Shown here in pieces: positions 1,447-42,072 of a DNA stretch of 64,000 nt (position 1 is its first letter; the number at the start of each line of letters is the position of its first letter). The stretch is taken from the NCBI RefSeq assembly GCF_053078305.1, contig NZ_CP166879.1; one strand, written 5' to 3'. A program made the translations under genes and the position numbers. The notes under the pieces are model-generated. The model was not told the DNA's origin. It did not search any database and saw only the letters and a list, made by a program, of their open reading frames with translations.

Positions 1447-2721
1447 TTACCCCGCCTTGTTATGGGGCATGGTTGGGGCAAACTCGCTTAGCTGTGTATT
1501 TAACAGCGTTACCTGTGCATTATTATTTTCTGACATCCATTTTCCGTACACCTGAAACACCATTTGCGCATCGGCATGCCCCATCTGGTTTGCTATGAAT
1601 GCAGGATTAGCACCAGCTGTTAGCGACCAGCAGGCATAAGTATGTCTCGACTGATATGATTTTCGGTGGCGGAGTCCTGCTCGTTTTATTGCTGCGTCCC
1701 ACATCTGTCTTATTGAGTCAACAGTAAAATGGTCACCATAATTTTTTACTCTCGCTGACACTTCAGGTTGAAAAACAAAGGTGCATTTTTGTTTTTCTGT
1801 TCTGCCATACTCTCTGAGGTGAACATCAATGATATGCTCTTTGCTCAGTCTCGTTAGTGTCATCTGATTCTGGAGGGCCTCGATTGCTGGCTTAATAAGG
1901 TGAATTACACGATTAGTCCCCGCCTGTGTTTTTGGTACCGTAAAATGGTCTTTTGCTAAATTTCTCCTGATCATCATTGTTCCATTTTTCAGATCTATGT
2001 CCTCCCATCCAAGTGCACACAACTCACCAGGGCGAACGCCAGTATAAACAGAAACACACCACAAATTTTTGGCTTGCTGATTTCTGCACGCATCTATAAG
2101 GCGGATAAATTCCTCCCGCGAAAGAGGATCTGGAATGGTTCTTGATTCCTTTAATGGCGATATCCCCTTAAACGGATTATCTGCCAGGTAGCTGTTATCA
2201 ACACCAAACTGGAACACGGCGTTAAGATTTGTCATGTAATTATTTACGGTAACAGCCGATCTCCCGGGTTGTGTAACAATATAGTTACTTTTGGGGATCT
2301 GGTATCCAGTCAGTAACTCTTTACGAACCTCCAGTAATTTTTCTTTATTAATCGATGAGGCAAGATTTTTTTCACCGATTATGCTCAGGATATTTTTGAT
2401 GACGGCACGGTATGTATTGAGTGAACTTCTGGCAACTTCGGCCTCTTTTAGTGCCAGAAATTTTTCGGCCAGTTCACCTATAGTCAAATTTTGTCTGGCT
2501 TCCCCAAATTTTTCCAGATTGTGGGAGTAGGGGAACTGTTTTGCGTAGTCAAAAATCCCCGTTTTTATTGCGTAACAAACAGAAGCGCGTAGTTCACCAG
2601 CGATGCGTCTGTTTTTTACTGTGTCAGGGACACCGAGGTTTTCCCTGACTCTTACGCCTTTATAAACAAACCAGATGCGTAATGTCCCCCCGTGTTTTTC
2701 TACGCCTGTCGGATATTTCAT
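1447..2721 (-). CDS. int: Tyrosine-type phage integrase
   Basis: 424 aa with C-terminal catalytic region (...HTYACWSL...); sits at prophage/host junction. Confidence 0.8.
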   Translation of the reverse strand: MKYPTGVEKHGGTLRIWFVYKGVRVRENLGVPDTVKNRRIAGELRASVCYAIKTGIFDYAKQFPYSHNLEKFGEARQNLTIGELAEKFLALKEAEVARSSLNTYRAVIKNILSIIGEKNLASSINKEKLLEVRKELLTGYQIPKSNYIVTQPGRSAVTVNNYMTNLNAVFQFGVDNSYLADNPFKGISPLKESRTIPDPLSREEFIRLIDACRNQQAKNLWCVSVYTGVRPGELCALGWEDIDLKNGTMMIRRNLAKDHFTVPKTQAGTNRVIHLIKPAIEALQNQMTLTRLSKEHIIDVHLREYGRTEKQKCTFVFQPEVSARVKNYGDHFTVDSIRQMWDAAIKRAGLRHRKSYQSRHTYACWSLTAGANPAFIANQMGHADAQMVFQVYGKWMSENNNAQVTLLNTQLSEFAPTMPHNKAG

Positions 2722-2755
2722 GCCAGCTTCTCTCGTTGATTAGTGTTGTTTTGGA

Positions 2756-3007
2756 TTAAGCAAGGTGACGTCTTGGCCTTGCCGATGCCTGACGCTCGAT
2801 CCAGCGATCAATTTCTTCCAGATTGTAAAAACATGGGCTGTTATCCCACGGCATGCCGTCATGAGCGACATGTTTATACTCTCTCCCTTCCATAAATGAT
2901 TTTTCCCTGGCTTTTTTCAGTGTTCCTTTTTTTATTCCTTTCAGCGCAATTAACTGCTCTTCAGATACCCATTTGCCGGGAGAGACAATCATGATTACTT
3001 CACTCAT
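2756..3007 (-). CDS. Putative excisionase / small DNA-binding protein
   Basis: 83 aa ORF immediately upstream of int on same strand; position-based call. Confidence 0.45.
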   Translation of the reverse strand: MSEVIMIVSPGKWVSEEQLIALKGIKKGTLKKAREKSFMEGREYKHVAHDGMPWDNSPCFYNLEEIDRWIERQASARPRRHLA

Positions 3008-3077
3008 CGCTTTTTATCTCTTACATCAGATGAGCGCCGGTTGCAGAATACCAGTCACAACCGGCGACGGTTGAACA

Positions 3078-5597
3078 TTAAAAATCAGCCTGATTCGGGA
3101 ACAGTTTTTGCCAGATAACTGAAACGTATTTTGCCTGGTAACGCGCATCGTGCAGGGCATTATGGCGTTCACCCTCAAATGTGATGACGTTGCGGGCATC
3201 GAAATCCATCACCAGTCCCAGGGCAACAATCGTTCTTACATCACGATCGTTGTAGTGACGCCACGGGCAGGGGATTTCTTGTCGTTTATATGAACGGCTT
3301 AAAATTACGTTGTCGAAGTTGGCTCCATTTCCCCAGACCTGAACAAAAAACTCACCGGAGTTTTCGTCTATAAATTCCCGTAATTGTAAAAGCGCATCAT
3401 CAAGCGGTATTCGATCAGCTAAAATGGCGGCACGGGCTTCGCCAGAGCGTTGAAGCCACCATTCGATGGTGCTTATGTCTACAGTGCCACCACATGTATC
3501 CATATCAATTATTTTGCTGAATTCTGGCCCCAGTTCTCCGGTTTGCGGATCGAAAAAGACTGCGCCTATTGAGGCTATTGGTGCGTCAGGATTTTTGCCC
3601 ATCGTTTCAAGGTCAATCATCAGGTGATCCCACATTCTGCTGGTGGATGTGCTTTCACGATGACCGTTCACCTTAATTAAGGGATTTGCTGTCTCGCCTG
3701 TTTCATTATTGCCATTGGCATGTTGATCGCCTTCGGTGCACTCCTTGTTCGGGTGTCCGGCACTTTCCATTTCCTCCAGATCTTTTTCCCGGGCTTCATC
3801 CTGGCTTTCTTCGTTGAATGTCTCCTGGTATGTTGCGTCGCCCATCACCGCGCCACAGTCAGGACAGTTGCCGCCACCGCTCTGACCGCAGGCGGTGCAG
3901 ACTTTTTCCTCTTCCTGTTGCGCTACTGGTTCGGATTGTTTCGTTTCTGGCTCGTCTTGTAACGCATTTTGGCTGTTTTGTTCTGCTTTCTGGTCGTTCT
4001 GTTCCGTTTCTTGCTGGTTCTGGTTCACAGAATCGCAGGTTTCAATCCCCTTAACCCATTTCGAATCATTCGGGTCGCTAATCCCTTCAACAAACTCACC
4101 ACGGGAAGCGGCAAGCAATTTGTCGGCATCTGGTCGACTGATGTCTGCTGCCTCCATAATTTTATTTACTTCTTCAGCAGTAACTTTTACCTGTGACTTG
4201 TCATCCAGCGGCTGCGGGTCCTGATGATGTTCAACTGTATCCGCTGCCATTGTTTCAGCCGTTGCCTGTTCATCTGCCATTGCGCCAGATGGCTGCGGTT
4301 TTTCTTCATCATCCTGTTTTCCTTCTTTTGTTACACGCTGAGGGATAGGGGCAGAGGAGCGACCGCAGGCAATATCCACGATTTCCGGATCAGGGTTGGC
4401 ATGATCGGTTTCGGTCAGTACTTTGTTCAGATATTCGGTAACACGGTGGGGAGTAGCCTCGATACCAATTGGTGCTTCTTTCACGGACGCAACTACTATC
4501 GCGCGGGAATAATCCAGGTGACCAGGCATGGCGATGAATTTGTCACGAAAAACAGAAAAGGGCGGCTTATTCTCTGAAACGATTTCTTCAATGCGTTTGG
4601 CGTGTGCCGGATGTGGATTGTAAATATCGATGTCCATTGAACGGGCCAGAACGCCAGCGGCAACGTCACGTTCCACTGACGCATCATCGTGGACAAAACC
4701 TTCACCGCGATCGGTAAGAATTCCTCCGCCAGCATTAGCGCCGGACGGGGTGCGATTGATTTCAGATACGCAATTTCCCTTTGCCCACTCTTTTGTCAAC
4801 AGCCCCTGATCAAGGTAGTCAGTCTTCATCCAGGTGGAAATGAACTTGTCGAATTCTGCCGGGCTGATACGGCGTGTTGTTGCGTGAGTGAATGCCTTTT
4901 CCACCGAATGCGCCAGTCTTCCAAGATGATGGTTTGTCAGCTTATCCAGCTCAGGATGCGAACGTACTGCAGTAAGCAGGCTCTGTATGTTTCCATCTTC
5001 CATATCCATTTCGATGCGGATCACGTCCTTGCGTTGTTCTGGTGTGGCGTGATGTTTGTATTTCTCGTCGAACTCCTGACCAAAGAAGTAGAGGTGCAGG
5101 AAGCGATGGGTAAGACTCAGGGTGGAGACGGGGATTTCACATTCAGGGCAGTCATCGTTGCTGTCCGGGGATTCGCTTTTATCTGCGTTCTCTGTCTGAG
5201 AGTCACTTTGTTCATCGCAGTCACGGCTGACACCTGTAACAGCTTCGCCGCTGGTATTGTCAGTGCTGGCAGGTTTGTCCTGAGCTGAAGGGGAAGGAGC
5301 TATAAATATCATTGTGATACCATCTTCCCCGCCTTTTTCGTAACGGTTGCAGAATTCAGTATCAAACACGCCTTCTGGAGGAAGGTCATTCACAACGGGT
5401 AAATGGACGCGAACAGGTTTTTTAAAGTCGTCCTCGTCATAATCATTATCATCCATTGCGGTAATGCAGCGGGAGATGGCAACAGATAATTTTTTTGCTG
5501 TAGTCCAGTAAAAACCACCTTTAATCCCAAGGCGTTTTCTGACCTTGTCATTTTTTGCTTCGCAATATAGTGCAAAAGTTTCTTTATCAGTGCTCAT
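3078..5597 (-). CDS. Large phage exonuclease with C-terminal DnaQ-like 3'-5' exonuclease domain
   Basis: 839 aa; C-terminus MIDLETMG...FDNVIL...HNALHDARY (DEDDh-like); acidic low-complexity linker and a Cys4 motif CTACG..CPDCG. Confidence 0.6.
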   Translation of the reverse strand: MSTDKETFALYCEAKNDKVRKRLGIKGGFYWTTAKKLSVAISRCITAMDDNDYDEDDFKKPVRVHLPVVNDLPPEGVFDTEFCNRYEKGGEDGITMIFIAPSPSAQDKPASTDNTSGEAVTGVSRDCDEQSDSQTENADKSESPDSNDDCPECEIPVSTLSLTHRFLHLYFFGQEFDEKYKHHATPEQRKDVIRIEMDMEDGNIQSLLTAVRSHPELDKLTNHHLGRLAHSVEKAFTHATTRRISPAEFDKFISTWMKTDYLDQGLLTKEWAKGNCVSEINRTPSGANAGGGILTDRGEGFVHDDASVERDVAAGVLARSMDIDIYNPHPAHAKRIEEIVSENKPPFSVFRDKFIAMPGHLDYSRAIVVASVKEAPIGIEATPHRVTEYLNKVLTETDHANPDPEIVDIACGRSSAPIPQRVTKEGKQDDEEKPQPSGAMADEQATAETMAADTVEHHQDPQPLDDKSQVKVTAEEVNKIMEAADISRPDADKLLAASRGEFVEGISDPNDSKWVKGIETCDSVNQNQQETEQNDQKAEQNSQNALQDEPETKQSEPVAQQEEEKVCTACGQSGGGNCPDCGAVMGDATYQETFNEESQDEAREKDLEEMESAGHPNKECTEGDQHANGNNETGETANPLIKVNGHRESTSTSRMWDHLMIDLETMGKNPDAPIASIGAVFFDPQTGELGPEFSKIIDMDTCGGTVDISTIEWWLQRSGEARAAILADRIPLDDALLQLREFIDENSGEFFVQVWGNGANFDNVILSRSYKRQEIPCPWRHYNDRDVRTIVALGLVMDFDARNVITFEGERHNALHDARYQAKYVSVIWQKLFPNQADF

Positions 5598-5689
5598 TGA
5601 TAAACCTCATTACTATTTTAAGGTTGTGCGAATCCCTGCCATTGCTGGCATTTTTAATCCGTTTGTATGGCGTTAATATGGCTGGTGGG

Positions 5690-5878
5690 TTATCCAGCCG
5701 GTATTTCGTTATTCAGGTACAGCGATACTTTTTTTAACGGGAGGCATTCGCCAGAAATTTTTTGCTCGTCTCTTGCACGGAGGCATGATTCTTTACTGGC
5801 ATAAATTCCGGTAATCACATTCTGTGGCTCACCCGTTATAAGAAAAACAGTCATTACCAGTGCAAATGCAGAAGTCAC
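5690..5878 (-). CDS. ydfD: YdfD-like small membrane/lysis protein
   Basis: 62 aa, hydrophobic N-terminus, sits directly downstream of dicB as in Qin. Confidence 0.5.
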   Translation of the reverse strand: MTSAFALVMTVFLITGEPQNVITGIYASKESCLRARDEQKISGECLPLKKVSLYLNNEIPAG

Positions 5879-6063
5879 TGCTGCCCCCCGAAAATACCAA
5901 GTTTAAGAAGGGCAATTCTGGAGAGTATGGAATTATCATTGAGAAGATAAGGCTCATATTTTCTCATCTTAATGGCATCTTCAGTAAACTCCCGGTTACT
6001 GAGCAGAACACCAATATCAAAACACCCTTCAGACGTATTAACGTTTGGTAATAACGTTTCCAT
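5875..6063 (-). CDS. dicB: DicB-like cell division inhibitor
   Basis: 62 aa METLLPNVNTSEGCFDIGV... closely matches DicB as I recall it. Confidence 0.75.
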   Translation of the reverse strand: METLLPNVNTSEGCFDIGVLLSNREFTEDAIKMRKYEPYLLNDNSILSRIALLKLGIFGGQQ

Positions 6064-6073
6064 TATCGCGTCC

Positions 6074-6631
6074 TCAACAATGAATTTTTAGTAATTGCTC
6101 CACAGTCATATTTTTAATTGCGCTCCGGTTTACAAGAGTCCAGCCTTGTTTCTCCAGATAAAACTGGAAGGTATCCAGGGTGCAGACCATTGCGCCGTCC
6201 GGAACGGTTTCAGTGAATTTGATATTGCCGTGTTCGTCGAGACGGATAACCAGGGTACGTCCGTCCCCGTGAATCATTTTGTCGGGAGACGGGGCGTTAT
6301 TCTGGCGCAGTTCTTTCTCCATGCGATCGAACTCAGCGATGTAGGCTTCTTTAAATGCAGCGGCTTTTTTGCCGGTGAAGCCCATCACCAGGAAAACGAA
6401 GCCGTTTTTGGTGATTTGGTACATGGGGCGTTTTTCGCCTTTGGCATCGGTGTAGGTAACCGACACAAAATTGTGTTCGTTAAAATTTGATGAGCAGTCT
6501 AAATTGCGAATTTTATCCAGTACTCGCTCGTGACGCTTACCAAAGAACTCTGCAATTGCAACAGACGTAGTGACAGCGCGACCATTTTTGATGGTTACGT
6601 CAGGGTGAGAAAGGGTAGGGATAGTAGCCAT
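6074..6631 (-). CDS. rha: Rha-family phage regulatory protein
   Basis: Internal start MATIPTLSHPDV... with AGAGG RBS; the N-terminal extension of the tracked ORF overlaps a terminator hairpin and is rejected. Confidence 0.6.
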   Translation of the reverse strand: MATIPTLSHPDVTIKNGRAVTTSVAIAEFFGKRHERVLDKIRNLDCSSNFNEHNFVSVTYTDAKGEKRPMYQITKNGFVFLVMGFTGKKAAAFKEAYIAEFDRMEKELRQNNAPSPDKMIHGDGRTLVIRLDEHGNIKFTETVPDGAMVCTLDTFQFYLEKQGWTLVNRSAIKNMTVEQLLKIHC

Positions 6632-6930
6632 AATGGCAGCCTCTTGGTTGAGTATTAATAACTCACCACCAAGGTTTTCCACGACCATAAGGGTGGTGAG
6701 ACGTACAGGGGTGGAAATACCGGTCAACCAAGAATCCGGCCAGCCTTGCGGCTGCCCTGCACGCCCCACCATAATCTGAATGTGGCTGTGCATTACGCAT
6801 AAAAAAACCGCCTGAGCGCGGTTATGCGCTTGATTGAATTCCGGGTTTCCACGCCCGGCACCCGCTTTATGAGGTGCAGATGAACTATAATTCCACCCGT
6901 TCTGGTTTTCAATAGCTACATTCAACATTT
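6632..6930 (-). promoter_or_regulatory. Structured leader with intrinsic-terminator hairpin upstream of rha; homologous to satellite leader at 35684-36045
   Basis: Hairpin ACCGCgctcagGCGGT plus U7 near 6795-6825; conserved blocks shared with second copy. Confidence 0.45.
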
Positions 6931-7119
6931 TCTCTTACCCTTCATCACCGAAGTGAACTTTGTTGATGCAGTGCCTGGTGCCTCCAGGTGACGTTAACCA
7001 GTTAACAATTAACGCCGGAATACAGAAGTATGCCCGTTACGCCCCGTAAAAGACCACTTTACGGTTTTAACTGTTCCGCGTGCGCTTAGCCGCATTCACC
7101 GCATCACAAAATTCACTTT

Positions 7120-7178
7120 AAAAAGGGTGGCAGAGCAGTCACGGAGTAGAACTGATGCCACCAAAGACTACACATGGG
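7120..7178 (-). ncRNA. dicF: DicF-like small RNA
   Basis: Minus strand reads ...ggtggcatcagttctactccgtgactgctctgccaccctttttaaagtgaattttgtgatg, matching recalled DicF core and downstream flank. Confidence 0.6.
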
Positions 7179-7428
7179 TATTGTGGCGGGGCTGTCACTT
7201 AAGCGTATGGTCAACCTGACAACCCGGTGCATTTTCTGGAGCAATGGAGGAAACCCCAGCCATACTTACCGCCGCGCCATTTCGCGGAGTGCCACAACCG
7301 GAAGCGCACGTTCGAAGAAATCTAACGACAAGCCTTCTAAGGGAAAGAGCTTCGCCGTACGCTTTCGCGTTATGCCCTGACTTTTCAGGGTAAATTAACC
7401 AGTGGCAACCTGTTTTTACTGGTGCTAA

Positions 7429-7581
7429 TCAGTTAGTGTTTCTTGCTAACCAGCGACGCGCGCCAGCTTCGGTTTTAAACTTTTTACTTTTGGTATACGT
7501 CATCGCGGTAAACGTGCCGTCCTGGTTAGGGAACACACCGCATACCAGAGATTCGTTGTTGCCAAGATTGAGCGTATCCAT
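7429..7581 (-). CDS. Small ydfA-like protein
   Basis: 50 aa from internal Met (MDTLNLGNNESLV...); first gene of dicB-type operon; identity tentative. Confidence 0.4.
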   Translation of the reverse strand: MDTLNLGNNESLVCGVFPNQDGTFTAMTYTKSKKFKTEAGARRWLARNTN

Positions 7582-7771
7582 GTTGACCTCATTTCCCCTT
7601 AACGCCGGGGTAGCGGAACTGTTTGCTGAGAACACCGTGCGGTGTCTTGATGGATGGTAATTTAGTTTTCTCATTGCGCTTGGTCAAATGTTTTTGATGA
7701 GAAATCTCAATATTTAATACAAAACAAAGCCAATACATTGAAATGTAAGGCTTTAAATTTTGTGAAGGGGG

Positions 7772-8179
7772 TTATTGATGTTTGTTACGTTTGCGAGCTT
7801 CTAGTAGCTCGGTGAATAGGCGATTAAAATTCTCAACGCGGGCACGGAGTTCGCTGATCTGTGCTTGCTGCTCTGATTTTGGAAGTGCGCGATACAATCG
7901 CAACATCTCCAACTCATCTTCCGATAAGTCTAAGGCGCTGTTGAGTGCAACTGGTGGATCTGGTGTTTTATCCTCGTCACCAAACAGTATCCAAGTTGGT
8001 GAACATTGCAATACCTCAGCTAGGCGATGCAAATTTTGCCCGCGCGGGGCTGTATGGTCGCTTTCCCATAGTGAAATTGATGAGCCAGATACGCCAGCAG
8101 CTTTGCTTAAATCGTTTTGACTTAAACCAACCTGTTTGCGTCTTTCTCTAATTCGTTGACCTAAAGTTTTCTCGTTCAT
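7772..8179 (-). CDS. dicA: DicA-like HTH (XRE) repressor
   Basis: 135 aa, N-terminal HTH, ...LQCSPTWILFGDEDK... as in DicA. Confidence 0.8.
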   Translation of the reverse strand: MNEKTLGQRIRERRKQVGLSQNDLSKAAGVSGSSISLWESDHTAPRGQNLHRLAEVLQCSPTWILFGDEDKTPDPPVALNSALDLSEDELEMLRLYRALPKSEQQAQISELRARVENFNRLFTELLEARKRNKHQ

Positions 8180-8256
8180 ATTTAGATATCTTAATAACCC
8201 TTGACTTGAGATTCCTTGAGTGATTACTATTGAGAAAACTCAAGCCTGGAGGGGTG

Positions 8257-8484
8257 ATGTTTAAATCAGACGTAATTAATTTTTATGGGACGAAAGCCAA
8301 AGTAGCGAAAGCTGCTGGTGTTGATCCATCTGCTGTTTCTCAATGGGGGGAACTGGTCCCTGAAGGTCGCGCGATGCGCCTGCAAGAGGCATCCGGCGGG
8401 GAGCTTCAGTATGACCCCAAAGTTTATGACGAATATCGTAAGACGAAGCGGGCGGGGCGGGTGAACAATGAAAATCACTCCTGA
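8257..8484 (+). CDS. dicC: DicC-like Cro-type regulator
   Basis: Divergent from dicA; ...LVPEGRAMRLQEASGGELQYDPKVYDEY...; GGAGGGG RBS. Confidence 0.7.
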   Translation: MFKSDVINFYGTKAKVAKAAGVDPSAVSQWGELVPEGRAMRLQEASGGELQYDPKVYDEYRKTKRAGRVNNENHS

Positions 8485-14094: not shown

Positions 14095-14385
14095 CCTGGC
14101 CTGAAGCATTAACAACGGTAGGAATTGCGATGGCGGTGGCGCTGGTGGTGTATTCGATTTGCCGCTGGGGATAAAAACGGTTTGCGGGAAAAGGAGAGTT
14201 AAGTAGAATTGCAGCGGGTGCTTGAGGCTATCTGTCTCAGGCATGAACACCAAAAGGCAGATAGAGAAAAGCCCCAGTTAACATTACGCGTCCGGCAAGA
14301 CGCTTAACATTAATCTGAGGCTCAATCTGTGAACGGCAAATCTAGGTTAGCCTCTTACGCGCCGAAAGGCAAGGAGAAGCAGGCT

Positions 14386-14541
14386 ATGAAGCAGCAAAAG
14401 GCGATGTTAGTCGCCCTGATCGTCATCTGTATTACCGTCATTGTGACGGCACTGGTAACGAGGAAAGACCTCTGCGAGGTACGAATCCGAACCGGCCAGA
14501 CGGAGGTCGCTGTCTTCACAGCTTACGAACCTGAGGAGTAA
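14386..14541 (+). CDS. hok: Hok/Gef-family type I toxin
   Basis: 51 aa MKQQKAMLVALIVICITVIVTALVTRKDLCEVRIRTGQTEVAVFTAYEPEE; upstream in-frame extension resembles mok. Confidence 0.7.
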   Translation: MKQQKAMLVALIVICITVIVTALVTRKDLCEVRIRTGQTEVAVFTAYEPEE

Positions 14542-31091: not shown

Positions 31092-31281
31092 ACTGCAGGC
31101 GCTGCGTCAGGCGCGCCTTGATTTATTAACCGGTAAACGGGTGGTGTCTGTCCAGAAAGATGGTCGCAGAATTGAATATACGGCGGCCTCTCTGGATGAG
31201 CTTAACCGTGCGATCAATGATGCTGAGTTGGTACTGGGGACAACCCGCCGTCGCCGTCGTCCGCTGGGAGTGAGGTTATGA
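31075..31281 (+). CDS. Head-tail joining protein (gpW-like)
   Basis: 68 aa; ...LTGKRVVSVQKDGRRIEYTAASL... Confidence 0.8.
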   Translation: MVTVAELQALRQARLDLLTGKRVVSVQKDGRRIEYTAASLDELNRAINDAELVLGTTRRRRRPLGVRL

Positions 31282-32150
31282 AACGAACGCCTGTCCTGAT
31301 TGATGTGAACGGCGTTCCGCTTCGGGAGAGCCTAAGCTACAACGGGGGCGGCGCAGGATTTGGCGGGCAAATGGCAGAGTGGTTGCCACCCTCGCAGAGT
31401 GCCGATGCGGCCCTGCTGCCCGCGTTGCGTCTGGGGAATGCCCGTGCAGATGATCTGGTGCGCAATAACGGAATAGCGGCCAATGCGGTGGCCCTGCATA
31501 AGGATCACATTGTCGGGCATATGTTTCTGATTAGCTACCGTCCGAACTGGCGCTGGCTGGGGATGCGGGAGACCGCGGCAAAAAGTTTTGTCGATGAGGT
31601 GGAGGCGGCCTGGTCAGAATACGCAGAAGGGATGTTTGGTGAGATCGACGTGGAAGGGAAACGCACGTTTACGGAATTTATCCGTGAAGGTGTGGGCGTT
31701 CATGCGTTTAACGGCGAAATCTTTGTGCAGCCGGTCTGGGATACGGAGAGCACGCAACTGTTTCGTACGCGTTTTAAAGCCGTGAGTCCGAAACGGGTGG
31801 ACACGCCAGGACACGGTATGGGGAACCGTTTTCTGCGGGCCGGTGTGGAGGTCGATCGATATGGTCGTGCCGTTGCGTACCATATCTGTGAGGATGATTT
31901 TCCTCACTCCGGGAGTGGACGATGGGAACGGATCCCGCGTGAACTTCTCACCGGGCGTCCGGCCATGCTGCATATTTTCGAGCCGGTGGAGGACGGGCAG
32001 ACCCGTGGGGCCAATCAGTTTTACAGCGTCATGGAACGGCTGAAGATGCTCGATTCCCTGCAGGCAACACAGCTTCAGTCGGCCATTGTTAAAGCCATTT
32101 ATGTCTATCATCTCCCCGTAGTTGTCCGCATCGTTCGCCAACTCCACTGA
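31278..32150 (+). pseudogene. Portal protein (gpB-like), N-terminal ~275 codons, interrupted near 32102
   Basis: Portal homology stops at ...QSAIVKAIY; the last 16 codons are read-through into inserted DNA. Confidence 0.75.
32091..32103 (+). repeat. Left att core AAAGCCATTTATG
   Basis: Direct repeat of 43930-43942 (one mismatch). Confidence 0.5.
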
Positions 32151-32225
32151 AACCCTTGCTGCGGCTGGAATGTCGTTTTCCATACTTTTGATGACCGTTC
32201 ATCACACTTCCAGGTTTTCGCGGTT

Positions 32226-32285
32226 TTGTGTATTGCAATGTGTATTGCAAATTGGCGATCGGGATGGGTGTGTATTGCAAATCTC
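32226..32285 (+). repeat. Three TGTGTATTGCAA repeats (putative integrase arm sites)
   Basis: Same motif occurs twice at 43838-43862 near the other junction. Confidence 0.4.
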
Positions 32286-32298
32286 TTGAGGGCTGTTA

Positions 32299-33540
32299 AT
32301 GGCTATTGAAAACAAACTCAGTGACAAACTGTTAAAGAGTCTTGTCGGAAAACGGCAGGACAAACAAAAAACAATAGCGGATGGGCGCGGGTTGTCTGTG
32401 CGTGTAAGCATGGTTGGGGGGATCAGCTTTGTTTTTTACTATCGTCTTGGTGGCAGGGAATCCCCTCCGGTATGGCTTACACTTGGGCGCTATCCTGATA
32501 TGTCTCTTGCAACAGCCAGGCGCATGCGTGATCAGTGCCGTGAGTGGCTGGCTGAAAATCTGGACCCCCGCAGGCAAATAAAACTTGCCGCCGAAAAAAC
32601 CATGCAACCAGTGACCGTAAGGGATGCGCTGTTTTACTGGTACGACAATCACGCCACAACAGCCAGAAAAGAGCATGAATATTTAATAAAACGATTTGAA
32701 AAGCATATCTTCCCCTATATCGGTGATATGGCTATAGAACAGTGCAAATTACACACATGGCTTGCCGTCTTTGACAGGATCAAAAAAAATGCGCCTGTTA
32801 TGTCTGGTGCAATTTTTCTTGATATCAAACAGGCGTTGCGTTTTTGTCGCGTCAGGCAATACATCGCGTGCGATCCCTTTGGCGATATTAACGTAAGTTA
32901 TGTCGGGCGCTCATCCGGTATAAGGGATCGCGTTCTTAATATCAATGAAACAGCGGATGTATGGTCTTATGCTTACGGTAATAATTTGCTGACACTGTCA
33001 TCAATACATAACAGAAGAATAATGGTTATCTGCCTGGTGTTTGGTTGCCGTCAGCAGGAGGCGAGGTTATCCACATGGGACGAATGGGATTTAAAAAACT
33101 GGGTATGGACAGTCCCAAAAGAGCACAGCAAAAACAAGGAGGCCATAGTAAGGCCTGTTCCTGACGGCATAAAACAATGGCTCGTTAATCTTTACGCAGA
33201 AACAAAAAATCGCGGTTATGTTGTCGGTTGTGCTTTGCAAAGGGCGACAATAACAGGGGCTGCAAACAGAATATGCAGGCGTCTTGGTCATGATATTAAT
33301 GGCTTGTGGTGCATACATGATTTCAGGCGCACATTTTCCACTGCGCTTAATGATATGGGGGCGGATCCTTATATTGTCGAACTTCTTTTAGGTCATAAAG
33401 TGAAAGGGGTTGCCGGTGTTTACAATAAAAGCAGGCATATAAAGAAAAAACTTGAGGTGCTTAATATGTGGGTTAATTACCTTAATACGATAGCAGGATT
33501 TAACAACAACGTTATCGAGCTTAATAAAGAGGTGGTGTGA
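32299..33540 (+). CDS. int: P4-type tyrosine integrase
   Basis: 413 aa; N-terminal LSDKLLKSL...GRGLSVRV arm-binding domain; C-terminal ...LLGHK...VYNKS. Confidence 0.85.
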   Translation: MAIENKLSDKLLKSLVGKRQDKQKTIADGRGLSVRVSMVGGISFVFYYRLGGRESPPVWLTLGRYPDMSLATARRMRDQCREWLAENLDPRRQIKLAAEKTMQPVTVRDALFYWYDNHATTARKEHEYLIKRFEKHIFPYIGDMAIEQCKLHTWLAVFDRIKKNAPVMSGAIFLDIKQALRFCRVRQYIACDPFGDINVSYVGRSSGIRDRVLNINETADVWSYAYGNNLLTLSSIHNRRIMVICLVFGCRQQEARLSTWDEWDLKNWVWTVPKEHSKNKEAIVRPVPDGIKQWLVNLYAETKNRGYVVGCALQRATITGAANRICRRLGHDINGLWCIHDFRRTFSTALNDMGADPYIVELLLGHKVKGVAGVYNKSRHIKKKLEVLNMWVNYLNTIAGFNNNVIELNKEVV

Positions 33541-33541
33541 T

Positions 33542-33799
33542 ATGGCAATTTATTCTCTTGTTGATGAAAACGATTTGCGCACAATGAAGGACATTGATCG
33601 GTTCATTCGTGAAAAAGAGTGCATAGCACTTACCACGCTGGCAAACTCAACACGCTGGAAAATGGAGCAGGCAGGTAAATTCCCGCGACGTATCAAGATC
33701 GGTGAACGTGCGGCAGGGTATCGACTTTCAGAGGTTCAGGCATGGATCCGTGGTGAGTGGCATCCTGGATGGAAACCTGGAAAAACAAAACAGCAATAA
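33542..33799 (+). CDS. alpA: AlpA-family regulator / excisionase
   Basis: 85 aa; directly after int. Confidence 0.7.
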   Translation: MAIYSLVDENDLRTMKDIDRFIREKECIALTTLANSTRWKMEQAGKFPRRIKIGERAAGYRLSEVQAWIRGEWHPGWKPGKTKQQ

Positions 33800-33853
33800 C
33801 CAGTAAATAACGCCCCTCATCAAGAGGGGTTTTTGTCTATAGGGTAAAACGCG

Positions 33854-34432
33854 ATGAATAAAAATATTGCCGTGACGGGCAAGGGGTACGCTCGTCCAGT
33901 GAAAAAATTCTGTGATATTCGTGATCTTGTCGTTCTGCGCTTTGATGGTGTGAGCGTTCGCGTGGTGTATGTGAACGGCGATCCGTGGTTTGTTGCCGTT
34001 GACGTGTGCGCTGCGCTGGAAATTGTTGATCACAAGGTTGCGTTACGCCGTCTCGATGATGATGAAAAGGGGGAGTGTTTAATACCCACCCCAGGTGGAA
34101 ATCAAACAATGCGAACGGTATGCGAGTCAGGGTTCTACAAACTAATCGCCAGAAGTCGGAAAGCTGTTACTCCTGGCACGTTCGCCCGTCGTTTCAGTAA
34201 CTGGGTATTCAGAAATGTGATACCAGGTATCAGAAAAACGGGGGCTTATGGTATCCCGTGGGGGGCATTACAGGATTTTTCCCGCCGTAAAGAGCAATAT
34301 CAAATAAGTGCCAGCGAGAAGGGGAGGGAGCTACAGGCATGTAAGCGCAAAAAACGTGAACTGGAGGAAGAAGAAAAAAGGCTGATACGTGAATATCAGC
34401 CTGAGTTTTACTTTGGTGAGCGTATTCAGTAA
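33854..34432 (+). CDS. Bro-N-domain protein (antirepressor-like)
   Basis: ...VVYVNGDPWFVAVDVCAALEI... Bro-N signature. Confidence 0.65.
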   Translation: MNKNIAVTGKGYARPVKKFCDIRDLVVLRFDGVSVRVVYVNGDPWFVAVDVCAALEIVDHKVALRRLDDDEKGECLIPTPGGNQTMRTVCESGFYKLIARSRKAVTPGTFARRFSNWVFRNVIPGIRKTGAYGIPWGALQDFSRRKEQYQISASEKGRELQACKRKKRELEEEEKRLIREYQPEFYFGERIQ

Positions 34433-34895
34433 CCACACGCGGTGCTGATTATACGGTACATCGTGTTAACCGAGAAGCTACCCACCAGCAAGGCAAAATC
34501 TTCTGCTAAAAAATGACATATGGCCAGTCGTCCGGAAAGCATGAAATTTTACAAAAATGGAAAATGAAGATTTTTATTGTGCTGGTGGGTAAAAACAAAA
34601 AGCGCCCCGTTGCCGGAGCGCCCTTGTGAACAATTAACCTGCTGCGAAAAAATTGGATCAGTGCAGGGAAATTATATCAACTGTGTGAAGAAGCGCCACA
34701 ATTGCCAGTTTAGCTTTGCGGCGAACGCGTCAATAAAGAATATTCTTTCTTTAAATTCTGTTTGTGTATTTTTTCGTAGTTTTTCGTAGTTTTTCGTAAG
34801 GAGAAAGAGCGGCGCGTATGCACCGCTAAGGAGTTTATTTTCATGACTTATGCAGCTTTCAATCTTAGCACCGCCGTAGCTGGTGGACAAGGCTA

Positions 34896-35123
34896 TCAGC
34901 CAGGCGGTCGGTTTTTAGTGGCTTTTAACCGCCGTGGGTATTTCTCGACAAAATCTTCAAGGGCAAATTTTTCTGGTGGCACTAAGCGCGGCGCTGGTGG
35001 TGGTATTTTTGTTCTGGTTAGTTCTTCCTCAAGTCTGGCGCAGGCTTCTAACTGCCTTTGCCGGATGATTTCATCATCTTGCGTTTGCGTGTCTTGTATT
35101 GGTGATAGTGTGTTGTTGGTCAT
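34896..35123 (-). CDS. Hypothetical protein
   Basis: 75 aa ORF downstream of putative repressor; weak. Confidence 0.3.
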   Translation of the reverse strand: MTNNTLSPIQDTQTQDDEIIRQRQLEACARLEEELTRTKIPPPAPRLVPPEKFALEDFVEKYPRRLKATKNRPPG

Positions 35124-35180
35124 GATACTGCCCTGTAAAGCAATGCGCCGGAGTACCTCACGCCACGGCGCTGATAGTGA

Positions 35181-35501
35181 TTATTCTGATTCTTGGGTCT
35201 TGCGACGCTGGAGTTCTTCGCGTGCAACGGTGACAAGTTGCCCGATTTCTTCCGCTGCTTTGATGCCGATTTGTTCGACCTTAGCCAGAGCATCCAGTGA
35301 AGACACAAGGGGATTTTCTCCGCTGCCTTCTGCCTGGCGGCGGGCGATTTCACCGCGCATGGCGGTTACTATGAATCCGGCGTTGCTTTCACCGTCCAGT
35401 TTTACGGATTCCATGCCTTCAATAACATCATGCGGGATCCGAGCTGTCAGTGATTGTGATTTTGCGTTTTTTGAACCTGTAGCCATCTGTAATCCTCTCA
35501 A
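35181..35501 (-). CDS. Putative satellite regulator/repressor
   Basis: 106 aa, divergent from operator-like region. Confidence 0.4.
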   Translation of the reverse strand: MRGLQMATGSKNAKSQSLTARIPHDVIEGMESVKLDGESNAGFIVTAMRGEIARRQAEGSGENPLVSSLDALAKVEQIGIKAAEEIGQLVTVAREELQRRKTQESE

Positions 35502-35683
35502 TGAAAGTGTAAGACAATATACACATAAAAAGTCTTACATAAAAGCATTGACATGTAAGCCACCTATAAATAAAGTTACTTACACCTTGTTAATGCAAGG
35601 TGCAGAAACGACGAAACCCGGCAGTGCGCTAACACTAACCGGGCTTCTAACCACCAACGATAGAAAGCGTATCGAGGTAGCTA
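35502..35683. promoter_or_regulatory. Divergent control region with palindromic TGTAAGAC/GTCTTACA operators
   Basis: tgtaagacaatatacacataaaaagtcttaca and ttgacatgtaagcc...agttacttacac. Confidence 0.4.
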
Positions 35684-36045
35684 TGAGAAATCATACCACA
35701 CACCCGCAAGGGCGGGACTCGCACAACCTGAATAAATACATCTGGCGTTTTCTGGCCCGAAAAAACCAGTTGATCGCCAGTGTCGAAAATAGCTATGATT
35801 CCCGCGCACCTCATAAAACGGGTGCCGGGATTGGCGTCCTGGGCAAAACTGAAGCGCATAACACGCGCCCCGCGTGTTTTTTTGTGCCGCATAGTCACAC
35901 CTTATCAATGGTGGGCTGTACGGGGGCGGAGCAATCCGCGCCGGTTTCTTCAGTGTCCGGTTACGCCAACCCTGTACAGTCCGCCACCAGCGAAATTGGC
36001 GTTTCCGGTGGCGGTTATCTTAACCACACTGAGGAGGCTGCCAAC
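35684..36045 (+). promoter_or_regulatory. Structured leader with terminator hairpin; homologue of rha leader at 6632-6930
   Basis: Conserved blocks plus hairpin ACACGCGccccGCGTGT followed by U7. Confidence 0.45.
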
Positions 36046-36237
36046 ATGGCTACTATCCCTACCCTTGTACATTCTCAAACCGCCTTTCTCTGGCGCTTTA
36101 TCATCTTTGGCGCGTCAGACCATCAAATCATCCACGTCACCGCCTGGACGGAACGCGAAGCGCGTAGCCGTTGCCCGTCCGGTTGTGTTGCTGTATTCGC
36201 CGCCCGTATTCGTCAGGAGGTGTGCCATGTGCAATAA
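36046..36237 (+). CDS. Small ORF sharing its first seven codons (MATIPTL) with rha
   Basis: GAGGAGG RBS; 63 aa; N-terminal nucleotides identical to rha start. Confidence 0.3.
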   Translation: MATIPTLVHSQTAFLWRFIIFGASDHQIIHVTAWTEREARSRCPSGCVAVFAARIRQEVCHVQ

Positions 36238-36484
36238 AACCACACCGGACGCAGCCGCCGCGCTCACTACACTGATGCACGCGCTGATTGATATTTCTGT
36301 TATTGCTGACAGGGCGCATAAGCACGCCACCAGTGAAACAGAATATGCCGGGGCTTTCGTTCCTCATTCGCTGGCGGTTATGCAACTTAGTGCTGATATG
36401 GCGCTGAATGAGGCCAAAGCTATCCTGATTTCTGATTGTGAAAATGGGGGGGGGTTATGCGTGATGATCGTTTTAATGCCCTGA
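36227..36484 (+). CDS. Hypothetical protein
   Basis: 85 aa, CAGGAGG RBS. Confidence 0.35.
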   Translation: MCNKTTPDAAAALTTLMHALIDISVIADRAHKHATSETEYAGAFVPHSLAVMQLSADMALNEAKAILISDCENGGGLCVMIVLMP

Positions 36485-36678
36485 AACAGGAGTTTGATGG
36501 TGCGCCTGATGATGCAGGTGATGCGCTTTCGTCAATATCCGAACTGATAAGAGTGGCCTTTTTCTTACTTGGCACGAAAGAATATAAATCAACTGGAATA
36601 GACGTACTGAATATTACTGCTGATTATGCGGAATATATGGCAGAAGTGGATTTAAGAAAGATAACGGACAGGGGGTAA
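36457..36678 (+). CDS. Hypothetical protein
   Basis: 73 aa, coupled. Confidence 0.35.
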   Translation: MRDDRFNALKQEFDGAPDDAGDALSSISELIRVAFFLLGTKEYKSTGIDVLNITADYAEYMAEVDLRKITDRG

Positions 36679-36679
36679 T

Positions 36680-36913
36680 ATGCGTGATATTTACCACGAA
36701 ACAATAGACCGCGCATTTAGTGCCCTTGCTTACGCTGAAGGTATGTACGAAATATTGCAAATGTGTCTGGAAACATTTGGCGATAATGAGCGTGATGTAA
36801 AGAAGGCGCGGATTATTAAATCACTGATAACTCTCCTTGAACCTGTAATAACAGAGTTGCAGGAAATAGACTTATTGCACGACAGATATAACGAACAGCA
36901 CACCGGAGAATAA
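36680..36913 (+). CDS. Hypothetical protein
   Basis: 77 aa, coupled. Confidence 0.4.
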   Translation: MRDIYHETIDRAFSALAYAEGMYEILQMCLETFGDNERDVKKARIIKSLITLLEPVITELQEIDLLHDRYNEQHTGE

Positions 36914-36918
36914 AAATA

Positions 36919-39485: not shown

Positions 39486-39495
39486 GGGGGTGACG

Positions 39496-39768: not shown

Positions 39769-39774
39769 TCAACA

Positions 39775-41269: not shown

Positions 41270-41280
41270 CGGGGGATTCT

Positions 41281-41616: not shown

Positions 41617-41628
41617 GCAGGGGAAACG

Positions 41629-42042: not shown

Positions 42043-42072
42043 CATAAGGCCGGAGAAATCCGGCTTTTTTTA

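What the first reader, a model, noticed from the sequence alone, without database searches (positions are those of the whole stretch)
5690..7200. dicF-rha-dicB-ydfD division-control cluster with rha inserted between DicF and dicB
A DicF-like sRNA (7120-7178, minus) with its terminator-like 3' hairpin precedes the structured leader, rha, dicB and a ydfD-like gene. In the Qin arrangement I recall, dicF lies directly upstream of dicB; here a Rha regulator and its leader are in between, so division inhibition, an antirepressor-like protein and an sRNA share one transcript.
Basis: partly seen in the sequence, partly recalled or inferred. Interest (0 to 1): 0.45.

Follow-up and report, generated by a model that had tools for sequence, protein, structure and literature searches.

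The report
RNA-gated Rha cassette inside dicBF operon
A prophage at the E. coli Qin site carries, between the division-inhibitor sRNA DicF and the division-inhibitor gene dicB, a self-contained P4/P1-type RNA-immunity cassette (own promoter, IsrK, C4 antisense RNA, Rha regulator); every part is of a known kind, but I found no paper describing this placement.

Summary
On the minus strand lie DicF (7176-7125, Rfam 61 bits), a Rha-family gene, dicB (6063-5875) and a ydfD-like gene (5878-5690). Compared with K-12 Qin, about 870 bp (6953-6081) sit 17 nt upstream of the dicB start, flanked by AAAGTTCA/AAAATTCA.

The "structured leader" is not a plain 5' UTR. It is a complete P4/P1/Gifsy-1-type riboregulator:
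- a strong sigma-70-like promoter (6912-6884);
- IsrK with its own terminator (6877-6801);
- C4 antisense RNA (6776-6689);
- C4 target boxes lying on the rha Shine-Dalgarno sequence.

The C4 loops co-vary with both the IsrK boxes and the SD boxes across ten modules. The 284-aa ORF that PGAP annotates starts upstream of the internal promoter and reads in frame through both RNAs into rha, as P4 eta does into kil. Its frame is kept open, but its amino acids are barely constrained (dN/dS about 0.8, against about 0.2 in Rha).

So "one transcript" is only partly right. The same DicF-cassette block occurs in 384 of 5426 complete E. coli genomes, upstream of dicB (268) or kilR (118).

Verdict: a new arrangement of known modules, of moderate interest.

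The parts
7772..8179 (-). DicA-like short HTH repressor (135 aa), upstream of and co-oriented with the operon
   Evidence: HTH_3 E=1e-16. 57% identical to K-12 DicA and 28% identical to the Gifsy-1 repressor.
7659..7687 (-). dicBp-like promoter (TTGACC-17-TAAATT) upstream of ydfA
   Evidence: Consensus scan. It lies just upstream of, and overlaps the start of, the 90%-identical K-12 block (window 7652-7438) that covers the region upstream of ydfA and ydfA itself. Function is inferred from K-12 (PMC10448788).
7429..7584 (-). ydfA (DUF1391). ydfB and ydfC are absent here.
   Evidence: PF07151 E=2e-29. The K-12 alignment lacks 3152-3655.
7125..7176 (-). DicF sRNA with a 3' terminator hairpin. The 5' 12-15 nt differ from K-12.
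   Evidence: RF00039 61.1 bits; fold; alignment with K-12 and four other loci.
6954..7124 (-). Conserved structured spacer shared with K-12 (dicF-dicB intergenic). A long-range helix of about 20 bp has its 3' strand ending at the cassette junction.
   Evidence: 80% identical to K-12. The folded stretch was 7124-6929, which runs about 25 nt into the cassette; MFE -69.3 kcal/mol, z=-4.7.
6081..6953 (-). Block absent from K-12 Qin (cassette), bounded by AAAGTTCA (6961-6954) and AAAATTCA (6088-6081)
   Evidence: blastn breakpoints. The left junction is identical in five E. coli loci. Right junction.
6074..6928 (-). Long nested ORF (284 aa; 'Ash' region plus Rha). Its start codon and an AAGGGTAAGAG SD-like sequence lie upstream of the internal promoter. 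It is an analogue of P4 eta.
   Evidence: ORF list. Phage_ASH aa 14-109 plus Rha. P4 Eta hits the same Pfam family over the stretch that encodes seqA and CI. The frame is open in 13 of 14 modules. dN/dS is 0.6-1.1, with one closely related pair at 2.06.
6884..6912 (-). Internal promoter (PisrK-like) TTGAAA-17-TATAGT, 6 nt upstream of the first base of IsrK
   Evidence: Best sigma-70 match in 5400-8400, 10 of 12. Conserved in five E. coli loci. The -10 aligns with that of the experimentally shown Gifsy-1 PisrK region (PMC4825925).
6801..6877 (-). IsrK sRNA (the a1b1 region): a1 GTGGAAA 6852-6846, b1 TCAATCAAGCG 6837-6827, intrinsic terminator 6823-6806 plus a U7 run
   Evidence: RF01394 68.4 bits; terminator scan; covariation with C4.
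6689..6776 (-). C4-type antisense RNA: b' loop 6735-6724, a' 6717-6711. The AUG at 6772 is the homologue of the Gifsy-1 orf45 start.
   Evidence: RF01695 79.8 bits; box extraction; covariation.
6640..6682 (-). C4 target region: a2 GTGGAAA 6682-6676; b2 TCAACCAAGAG 6651-6641, overlapping the rha SD AAGAGG 6645-6640
   Evidence: 11 contiguous pairs with the cognate b' loop. 98% of cells paired and 8 of 11 pairs compensatory across ten modules.
6074..6631 (-). Short rha ORF (185 aa) from the conserved GAGGCTGCCAnnATGGCTAC start. Its stop TGA lies inside the dicB SD.
   Evidence: PF09669 aa 21-106. The start motif is shared with the second copy in the window and with P4 kil, whose cargoes are unrelated to Rha. 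PHROG antirepressor and regulator families match.
5875..6063 (-). dicB (62 aa), 10 nt after the rha stop
   Evidence: PF05358 E=1.4e-36; 62% identical to K-12 DicB.
5690..5878 (-). ydfD-like DUF1482 gene; its GTG start overlaps the dicB stop (GTGA)
   Evidence: PF07358 E=7e-16; 47% identical to K-12 YdfD.
3078..5597 (-). Downstream exonuclease (exonuclease VIII N-terminal region plus a 3'-5' exonuclease domain), next gene of the leftward operon
   Evidence: Pfam; annotated 'exonuclease' in homologous loci.

Best explanation
The window holds a full-length lambdoid prophage at the Qin attachment site (rspAB/ydfJ). Its leftward DicA-controlled operon reads dicBp - ydfA - DicF - [cassette] - dicB - ydfD-like - exonuclease.

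The cassette (6953-6081) is a portable RNA-immunity unit of the P4 (seqA-CI-seqC, eta/kil), P1/P7 (a1b1-c4-a2b2-icd) and Gifsy-1 (isrK-orf45-anrP) kind. Here its cargo is a Rha-family, antirepressor-like protein.

Proposed working, with shown and inferred steps separated:
1. The internal promoter makes IsrK, which ends at its own terminator. Read-through transcripts contain C4. (Sequence features are shown here; activity is inferred from Gifsy-1 and P4.)
2. C4 pairs through its a' and b' boxes with a2 and b2. Box b2 covers the rha Shine-Dalgarno sequence, so pairing blocks the short Rha start. By polarity or Rho-dependent termination it probably also limits dicB and ydfD expression from this promoter. 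(The pairing is shown by covariation; the repression and polarity are inferred from P1 and P4.)
3. IsrK carries decoy boxes a1 and b1. These pair with the same C4 loops in cis (the silent fold) or in trans, giving an anti-antisense switch. (The pairing is shown by covariation; the outcome is inferred from Gifsy-1.)
4. When DicA-type repression is lifted, dicBp transcripts that pass the DicF terminator include ATG 6928. Ribosomes translating the 284-aa nested ORF run through IsrK, C4 and a2b2. This makes expression of Rha, DicB and YdfD insensitive to C4, as shown for P4 eta. (The nested-ORF geometry and open-frame conservation are shown; the effect is inferred.)
5. Rha may act as an antirepressor of the DicA-like repressor. 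(Speculative.)
For: Module identity:
- Rfam hits for DicF, isrK and C4 are all above their gathering scores.
- The same isrK and C4 hits occur in Gifsy-1 and in P4, and an RF03163 'a1, b1 targets of C4' hit overlaps IsrK in Gifsy-1 above its gathering score (in P4 it scores 44.1 bits against a gathering score of 46.7).

Promoter and terminator:
- TTGAAA-17-TATAGT, matching 10 of 12 consensus positions, and the IsrK terminator.
- The promoter is conserved in five E. coli loci.

RNA-RNA pairing:
- b'-b2: 98.2% of cells paired, 8 of 11 pairs with changes on both sides, covariation score 0.84 against 0.25 in shuffles (0 of 500 reach it), and at most 0.14 when the partner is slid.
- a'-a1 plus b'-b1: 94.4% paired, 14 of 18 pairs compensatory.
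- Cognate b'-b2 helices have 8-12 contiguous pairs; non-cognate ones average 5.9.
- The MFE fold of 6877-6615 pairs the IsrK boxes with the C4 loops.

Nested ORF:
- The cargo frame has no stop codon in 13 of 14 modules; the other two frames have 31 and 57 stops in total.
- The C4-AUG lies 138 or 141 nt from the cargo AUG, in frame, in 12 of 13 modules.
- dN/dS is 0.56-1.08 (one closely related pair 2.06) in the 'Ash' part and 0.10-0.39 (one closely related pair 0.61) in Rha. dS is also depressed in the Ash part.
- P4 Eta matches Pfam Phage_ASH exactly over the stretch that encodes seqA and CI, and P4 Kil starts with the same QEAAIMAT motif.

Literature:
- P4 eta, kil and internal-promoter logic, as summarised in PMC10111431.
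- Gifsy-1 IsrK, orf45 and AnrP experiments (PMC4825925).
- DicA is a short Gifsy-type repressor that is relieved by an antirepressor (PMC10448788).

Context:
- Breakpoints relative to K-12.
- No Rem homologue in the window.
- The block recurs in 384 genomes, upstream of dicB in 268 or kilR in 118.
Against: - No expression data exist for this locus. Promoter, terminators, C4 processing, repression and polarity are all inferred from sequence and from homologous systems.
- Gifsy-1, the only experimentally dissected lambdoid example, uses a separate orf45 with a UGA/AUG overlap, not an in-frame fusion. The translation logic may therefore differ here.
- The open frame could in part be inherited from a conserved sequence rather than selected.
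- dicB keeps its own SD and could be translated independently of rha.
- The DicF terminator may leave few read-through transcripts.
- The antirepressor role of Rha is untested. The Rha cargo is unrelated to AnrP in its N-terminal domain (ORF6N against pRha).
Confidence: 0.7

Rival explanations
1. There is one dicBp-driven polycistronic transcript. The region upstream of rha is merely a cis-acting structured 5' leader, and DicF, Rha and DicB are produced together.
For: All genes are co-oriented and closely packed. In K-12, dicBp drives ydfABC-dicF-dicB-ydfD and no internal promoter was found (PMC10448788). Read-through transcripts are expected here too.
Against: The inserted block brings its own 10-of-12 sigma-70-like site at the correct distance from the first base of IsrK, plus an intrinsic terminator. 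The homologous Gifsy-1 promoter is experimentally active. The 'leader' matches two trans-acting RNA families and shows three-way covariation.
Confidence: 0.15
2. The 284-aa ORF is an ordinary single protein, as PGAP annotates it ('Rha family phage regulatory protein' with an N-terminal Ash domain). The Rfam hits would be by-products of a conserved coding sequence.
For: The ORF is open and is annotated in every homologous locus. Pfam Phage_ASH and PHROG 995 profiles cover the N-terminal part. The frame is free of stop codons in 13 of 14 modules.
Against: dN/dS is about 0.8 with depressed dS in the Ash part, which indicates nucleotide-level rather than protein-level constraint. A promoter and a terminator lie inside the 'gene'. 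Compensatory changes link three separate boxes. The conserved SD and ATG sit at the junction with unrelated cargoes: Rha, Icd-like and Kil. In Gifsy-1 the frame is broken, yet the system works.
Confidence: 0.05
3. The cassette is functional but autonomous. Its position next to dicB would be a neutral outcome of mosaic recombination at a permissive junction. dicB would be controlled as in K-12, with no meaningful gating by C4, IsrK or Rha.
For: The same cassette sits in unrelated positions elsewhere: between cII and O in mEp460, ST64B and Stx phages; downstream of Q in Gifsy-1; and in a satellite. dicB retains its K-12 SD and the 17-nt upstream sequence.
Against: The DicF-spacer-cassette block is found upstream of two unrelated septation inhibitors, dicB (268 genomes) and kilR (118). 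P1 and P4 C4/CI modules also directly control division inhibitors (icd, kil). The rha stop lies inside the dicB SD, 10 nt from the dicB ATG, a geometry that favours coupling or polarity.
Confidence: 0.3

Closest known systems
E. coli K-12 Qin dicBF operon (dicA/dicC, ydfABC, DicF, dicB, ydfD)
   Same: Same chromosomal site (rspAB/ydfJ flank). Same order dicC/dicA - ydfA - DicF - spacer - dicB - ydfD. The dicBp region is 90% identical and the DicF-plus-spacer region 80% identical. A DicA-type short repressor is present.
   Different: ydfB and ydfC are missing. About 870 bp with IsrK, C4 and rha are inserted 17 nt before the dicB start. The DicF 5' 12-15 nt are replaced. There is no Rem homologue in the window. 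The prophage is not a remnant: replication, lysis and head genes are present.
Satellite phage P4 immunity region (PLL/PLE, seqA - CI RNA - seqC, nested eta/kil)
   Same: isrK and C4 Rfam hits in the same order inside one long ORF. The long ORF starts upstream of an internal promoter. The short nested gene starts at the conserved QEAAIMAT motif, with its SD inside the b2/seqC box. The Pfam Ash region equals the RNA-coding stretch.
   Different: The cargo is Rha (185 aa), not the 65-aa Icd-like Kil. The host element is a lambdoid prophage, and the upstream promoter would be dicBp preceded by DicF. The spacer between seqA and CI is longer in P4.
Gifsy-1 isrK-orf45-anrP-isrJ locus (Salmonella)
   Same: The promoter, IsrK with its terminator, the C4-like STnc1160 and an antirepressor-type cargo occur in the same order. 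IsrK and C4 boxes are complementary. The host prophage repressor is of the same short DicA/GfoR type (PMC10448788).
   Different: In Gifsy-1, orf45 is a separate 45-codon ORF whose UGA overlaps the anrP AUG. Here the same AUG is in frame with rha. AnrP has an ORF6N domain, not pRha. The Gifsy-1 locus lies downstream of antQ, not in the early-left operon. No isrJ is present here.
P1/P7 immI operon (c4 - icd - ant)
   Same: A C4 antisense RNA is processed from the same transcript it regulates. Its a'/b' loops pair with a2/b2 over the SD of the first gene. Specificity is set by a few loop bases. One RNA gate serves a division inhibitor plus an antirepressor.
   Different: The gene order is reversed and the proteins are not homologous (Rha then DicB, against Icd then Ant). 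An IsrK-type terminated sRNA and a nested long ORF are present here.

Membership tests
DicF RNA (RF00039) | Covariance-model score at or above the gathering score | tested here: met
   61.1 bits against 48, full model 1-52. K-12 DicF scores 76.7.
DicF RNA (RF00039) | 3' Rho-independent terminator hairpin, and location in a dicBp/ydfA...dicB operon | tested here: met
   Hairpin plus U-run. Compensatory stem change relative to K-12. Synteny with K-12.
DicF RNA (RF00039) | 3' region pairs with the ftsZ translation-initiation region | tested here: inconclusive
   RNAduplex gives -33.3 kcal/mol against -38.5 for K-12 DicF. Neither is clearly better than shuffled sequences (46 of 300 and 20 of 300 shuffles do as well). 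One U-to-C change lies in the pairing stretch.
DicF RNA (RF00039) | 5' region that pairs with xylR (K-12; PMC5069750) | tested here: not met
   The 5' 12-15 nt are replaced: CAUGUGUAGUC here, UUUCUGGUGACG in K-12. This is sequence only; pairing with xylR was not computed.
IsrK / c4-a1b1 (RF01394, RF03163) | Model score; own promoter; own intrinsic terminator | tested here: met
   68.4 bits against 50. TTGAAA-17-TATAGT and the terminator at 6823-6806. Activity was not tested.
IsrK / c4-a1b1 (RF01394, RF03163) | a1 and b1 boxes complementary to the C4 a' and b' boxes | tested here: met
   94.4% of cells paired, 14 of 18 pairs compensatory, 0 of 500 shuffles reach the score.
C4 antisense RNA (RF01695) | Model score and fold | tested here: met
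   79.8 bits against 45, full model, no non-canonical pairs flagged.
C4 antisense RNA (RF01695) | Loops pair with a2 and b2, which overlap the ribosome-binding site of the downstream gene | tested here: met
   b2 (6651-6641) overlaps the SD AAGAGG. 11 contiguous pairs. 98.2% paired, 8 of 11 pairs compensatory.
C4 antisense RNA (RF01695) | Processed from the precursor transcript; represses translation and causes premature termination | not testable with these tools
   Needs Northern blots, RNase P assays, reporter fusions and Rho inhibition.
P4 eta/kil-type nested gene | A long ORF in frame with the short regulated gene, spanning the immunity RNAs, with its start upstream of the internal promoter | tested here: met
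   ATG 6928 lies upstream of the -35 hexamer, whose first base is 6912. The frame is open from just upstream of ATG 6928 (in-frame stop TAA 6937-6935) down to 6074, and in 13 of 14 modules. P4 shows the same geometry.
P4 eta/kil-type nested gene | Translation of the long ORF makes expression insensitive to immunity | not testable with these tools
   Known for P4 (Forti 1999, as summarised in PMC10111431). No data exist for this locus.
Gifsy-1 isrK-orf45-anrP | A separate upstream ORF (orf45) whose stop overlaps the cargo start; ORF6N-type AnrP cargo | tested here: not met
   The homologous AUG (6772) is in frame with rha and has no intervening stop. The cargo is pRha; BLASTP against AnrP finds only a weak C-terminal match, E=0.006.
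Rha family (PF09669 / TIGR02681) | pRha domain above the curated cut-off | tested here: met
   107 bits against 29.9; TIGR02681 111 bits against 46.
DicB (PF05358) | Full-length DicB domain; position upstream of and overlapping a DUF1482 gene | tested here: met
   124 bits, residues 1-62 of 62. The GTGA overlap with the ydfD-like gene is visible in the sequence.

The most novel reading that the evidence does not exclude
The DicF - spacer - [PisrK-IsrK-C4-Rha] block may be a portable, RNA-gated 'division-inhibitor switch'.

- It has been recruited as a unit, with an identical left junction, upstream of two unrelated septation inhibitors: dicB in about 5% and kilR in about 2% of complete E. coli genomes.
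- This repeats the pairing of C4/CI RNAs with icd (P1) and kil (P4).
- In prophages that have a DicA-type repressor but lack Rem, the C4-gated Rha would be the missing antirepressor.
- An IsrK/C4 decision would then trigger DicA inactivation. That would release dicBp, giving DicF plus C4-insensitive translation of the nested ORF, DicB and YdfD. The result is an RNA-triggered positive-feedback loop coupling prophage derepression to a block in cell division.
Probability: 0.25. Interest if true: 0.6.

Novelty: new variant of a known kind. Interest (0 to 1): 0.4.

Why it matters
DicF and DicB are the standard examples of cryptic-prophage products that control host division, metabolism and phage resistance. 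How they are switched on is still being worked out, and only in K-12.

About 7% of complete E. coli genomes, including many STEC, carry a different version. In it a second, DicA-independent promoter and a three-RNA switch sit directly in front of dicB or kilR. If the gate works as in P4, P1 and Gifsy-1, then:
- conclusions about dicBF regulation drawn from K-12 do not transfer to these strains;
- a candidate antirepressor for DicA-type repressors becomes available for testing.

There is also a practical annotation point. The 'Ash' Pfam family and the N-terminal third of many 'Rha family' or 'antirepressor' CDSs are translations of the IsrK/C4 RNA genes. These are probably translated through, but they are not protein domains in the usual sense.

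Tried and rejected
- Whole-molecule RNAduplex matrices (C4 against all targets or all IsrKs) were too noisy to show specificity. The cognate pair was not always the best. I replaced them with box-level helix lengths and column-wise covariation.
- DicF-ftsZ duplex energies did not separate from shuffled controls, so retention of ftsZ targeting is left open.
- a'-a2 covariation could not be counted by column, because the a2 register shifts by one base between the 138-nt and 141-nt spacer classes. It is supported only by box inspection.
- The mechanical 45-aa ORF at 6800-6663 looked at first like Gifsy-1 orf45. It is in a different frame and position and was rejected. The true homologue of the orf45 start is the AUG at 6772.
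- BLASTP of Rha against AnrP found only a weak C-terminal match, so Rha is not filed as an AnrP orthologue.
- Forti et al. 1999 (PMC94026) is not held in the library. The P4 mechanism is cited through PMC10111431 and checked against the P4 sequence.
- Literature searches for DicF with IsrK, and for dicB with Rha or antirepressor, found no description of this arrangement. The library is incomplete, so this is absence of evidence only.
- The direction of the event (insertion here or deletion in Qin) cannot be decided from the 8-bp repeats alone.
Full report
**1. What is there**

On the minus strand the window reads as follows.

| Feature | Coordinates | Evidence |
|---|---|---|
| DicA-like repressor | 8179-7772 | |
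| dicBp-like promoter | 7687-7659 | |
| ydfA | 7584-7429 | |
| DicF | 7176-7125 | RF00039, 61.1 bits, |
| Conserved spacer | to 6954 | |
| Block absent from K-12 | 6953-6081 | |
| dicB | 6063-5875 | |
| DUF1482 ydfD-like gene | 5878-5690 | |
| 839-aa exonuclease | 5597-3078 | |

Divergently, a DicC/Cro-like gene and replication genes follow. The left flank is rspA-rspB next to ydfJ, which is the Qin site of E. coli.

**2. The breakpoints**

blastn against K-12 Qin aligns K-12 3655-4092 with window 7393-6954 and K-12 4085-4214 with window 6088-5959.

- The extra DNA sits 17 nt upstream of the dicB ATG.
- It is bounded by AAAGTTCA (6961-6954) and AAAATTCA (6088-6081).
- The rha stop codon falls inside the K-12-type dicB Shine-Dalgarno sequence, 10 nt before the dicB ATG.
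- ydfB and ydfC are missing.
- The spacer between DicF and the block is strongly structured (the folded stretch was 7124-6929; z = -4.7). A long-range helix of about 20 bp has its 3' strand ending exactly at the junction.

**3. What the 'leader' is**

Rfam finds isrK (6877-6801, 68.4 bits) and C4 antisense RNA (6776-6689, 79.8 bits).

- Six nucleotides upstream of the first base of IsrK lies TTGAAA-17-TATAGT. It is the best sigma-70 match in the 3-kb region scanned.
- IsrK ends in a GC hairpin followed by a U7 run.
- The same order (promoter, IsrK, C4, then an SD/ATG in a conserved GAGGCTGCCAnnATGGCTAC motif) occurs in several other elements:
  - Gifsy-1, where it is the experimentally studied isrK-orf45-anrP locus;
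  - P4, where the isrK hit is seqA and the C4 hit is the CI immunity RNA;
  - phages mEp460, ST64B, phiP27 and many Stx phages, between cII and O;
  - a second copy in this window (35806-35991, plus strand), followed by an Icd-like division inhibitor.
- Rfam's 'a1, b1 targets of C4' family (RF03163) overlaps IsrK in Gifsy-1 and, just below its gathering score, in P4.

**4. RNA-RNA logic**

The C4 hairpin loop b' (6735-6724) is complementary to b2 (6651-6641), which overlaps the rha SD, and to b1 inside IsrK (6837-6827). The single-stranded a' (6717-6711) is complementary to a2 (6682-6676) and to a1 (6852-6846).

Across ten distinct modules:

| Pairing | Cells paired | Pairs with changes on both sides | Covariation score | Controls |
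|---|---|---|---|---|
| b'-b2 | 98.2% | 8 of 11 | 0.84 (shuffles 0.25) | 0 of 500 shuffles reach it; slid partners at most 0.14 |
| a'-a1 plus b'-b1 | 94.4% | 14 of 18 | 0.83 (shuffles 0.22) | 0 of 500 shuffles reach it |

Specificities differ even between otherwise 94%-identical E. coli loci. The window has b = TCAACCAAG; strains 2012EL-2448 and STEC434 have TGACTAyCG. The two copies within the window also differ (a: GTGGAAA against TTGGCGT; b: TCAACCAAG against ACACTGAAG). This is the behaviour described for P1/P7 C4 heteroimmunity (from my own knowledge). The minimum-free-energy fold of the full 263-nt RNA pairs the IsrK boxes with the C4 loops. That corresponds to the 'structure A' silent fold of the Gifsy-1 paper.

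**5. Is the region one protein?**

Mechanically, a 284-aa ORF (6928-6074) runs through IsrK and C4 in frame with rha. PGAP annotates exactly this in homologous loci. Pfam 'Phage_ASH' matches its residues 14-109.

Three results qualify this.

1. dN/dS over the RNA-coding part is 0.56-1.08 (one closely related pair 2.06), against 0.10-0.39 (one closely related pair 0.61) in the Rha domain. Synonymous divergence is also depressed there. The constraint is on nucleotides, not amino acids.
2. The frame is nevertheless kept open. There are no stops in 13 of 14 modules, against 31 and 57 stops in the other two frames. The AUG at the C4 5' stem lies 138 or 141 nt from the cargo AUG, in frame, in 12 of 13 modules.
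3. P4's eta ORF has the same anatomy. It hits the Ash family precisely over seqA and CI, and its nested 65-aa Kil starts at the same QEAAIMAT motif.

In P4, eta starts upstream of the internal constitutive promoter and is translated only from the upstream late promoter. Its translation prevents immunity-dependent termination. The short Kil is the form controlled by immunity (PMC10111431, summarising Forti et al. 1999).

In the window, ATG 6928 and an SD-like AAGGGTAAGAG lie inside the inserted block and just upstream of the -35 hexamer (first base 6912). The geometry is the same as in P4.

Gifsy-1 is the exception. A 4-nt loop deletion puts orf45 out of frame, and its UGA overlaps the anrP AUG. 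The 45-aa ORF at 6800-6663 in the window is an unrelated coincidence.

**6. Transcription units**

'One transcript' is only part of the picture. Two units are predicted.

- dicBp - ydfA - DicF (terminator or processing), with read-through into the nested long ORF, dicB and ydfD.
- PisrK - IsrK (terminator), with read-through into C4, the short rha, dicB and beyond.

The activity of both promoters is inferred from K-12 (PMC10448788) and from Gifsy-1 (PMC4825925).

**7. Distribution**

Among 5426 complete E. coli genomes:

| Arrangement | Genomes |
|---|---|
| K-12-type dicF-dicB stretch (at least 80% coverage) | 3838 |
| DicF-IsrK-C4 contiguous | 384 |
| rha-dicB junction | 268 |
| rha-kilR junction (Rac-type septation inhibitor, PHROG 294) | 118 |

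The left junction is identical in all five loci inspected, including the kilR one. The right junction differs between contexts. None of the phage records listed in the megablast search of the phage collection covers more than 53% of the 2.1-kb stretch. I found no paper describing IsrK/C4/Rha within dicBF.

**8. DicF itself**

- The 3' two-thirds are conserved, apart from a compensated stem change and one U-to-C change in the stretch that pairs with ftsZ.
- The 5' 12-15 nt are replaced. In K-12 this part is needed for xylR regulation (PMC5069750).
- Duplex predictions with ftsZ are not discriminating.

**9. Role of Rha**

- The cargo has a pRha domain and matches PHROG regulator and antirepressor families.
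- The prophage repressor is a short DicA/Gifsy-type protein. In K-12 this type is relieved by the antirepressor Rem.
- No Rem homologue is in the window.
- Rha as the antirepressor is a reasonable hypothesis, but it is untested.

**10. Verdict**

- Every component belongs to a known family, and the mechanism can be borrowed from P4, P1 and Gifsy-1.
- What is new is the composite. An RNA-immunity cassette with a nested eta-like ORF is embedded between DicF and a septation inhibitor. It recurs in about 7% of complete E. coli genomes and is not described in the literature I could search.
- I rate it a new variant of a known kind, with interest 0.4.

Noticed in passing
window 31278-44709: The lambda-family portal gene is split: 31278-32150 matches Pfam profile positions 2-241 and 43876-44709 matches positions 235-354. 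An element of about 11.7 kb lies between the halves. It encodes a tyrosine integrase (32299-33540), a Bro-N protein, a YlcI/YnfO protein, IsrK/C4/Icd-like, an AAA_25 protein, SSB, a capsid-E protein and a Nu1-like protein. This looks like a helper-embedded PICI of the kind described in PMC10111431.
   Followed up: partly
window 35806-36237: A second IsrK (35806-35882) plus C4 (35904-35991) module has its own promoter. It is followed by a 63-aa Icd-like host division inhibitor (NF033153, E=4e-16) that starts with the same seven codons (MATIPTL) as rha. Its a and b boxes differ from those of the copy at 6877-6689, so the two systems are predicted not to cross-talk.
   Followed up: yes
window 6632-6928, and Pfam PF10554 in general: The Pfam 'Ash protein family' and the N-terminal part of PHROG 995 correspond to the translation of the IsrK/seqA and C4/CI RNA genes in the eta frame. 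dN/dS is about 0.8. Many 'Rha family' or 'antirepressor' CDSs in RefSeq and GenBank include this stretch.
   Followed up: yes
window 7125-7176 versus L003, L015, L016: DicF comes in at least two 5'-end types: CAUGUGUAGUC (window type) and UUUCUGGUGAC (K-12 type). The 3' part is conserved. The 5' end is the xylR-pairing region in K-12, so target sets may differ between prophages.
   Followed up: partly
window 6929-7124: The dicF-dicB spacer shared with K-12 is very strongly structured (z=-4.7). It contains a nearly invariant core (CCGGCGTTAATTGTTAACTGGTTAACGTCACCTGGAGGCACCAGGCAC) and a long closing helix. It could be an RNase III substrate, but its function is not established here.
   Followed up: partly
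L015 (E. coli 2013C-4830), 2499-3841: In a Rac-like prophage the same DicF - IsrK - C4 - Rha block precedes kilR-ydaE-recE instead of dicB. This version is present in 118 complete genomes.
   Followed up: partly
window 50184-53296: Mu-type transposase A (Mu DNA-binding domain and Mu-transposase C-terminal domain) and a MuB-like ATPase. This suggests a Mu-like element inserted in or next to the late region of the lambdoid prophage.
   Followed up: no
window 14216-14391, 19758-20006, 20837-21049: A sok antitoxin RNA (hok/sok-type module), three phage tRNA genes and STnc100 lie in the nin/Q-to-lysis part of the prophage. All score above their Rfam gathering scores.
   Followed up: no
window 34843-36237: A mechanical 464-aa ORF runs in the Icd frame through the second IsrK/C4 module and further upstream, antisense to the YlcI/YnfO gene. 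Where the real eta-like start of this copy lies was not determined.
   Followed up: no
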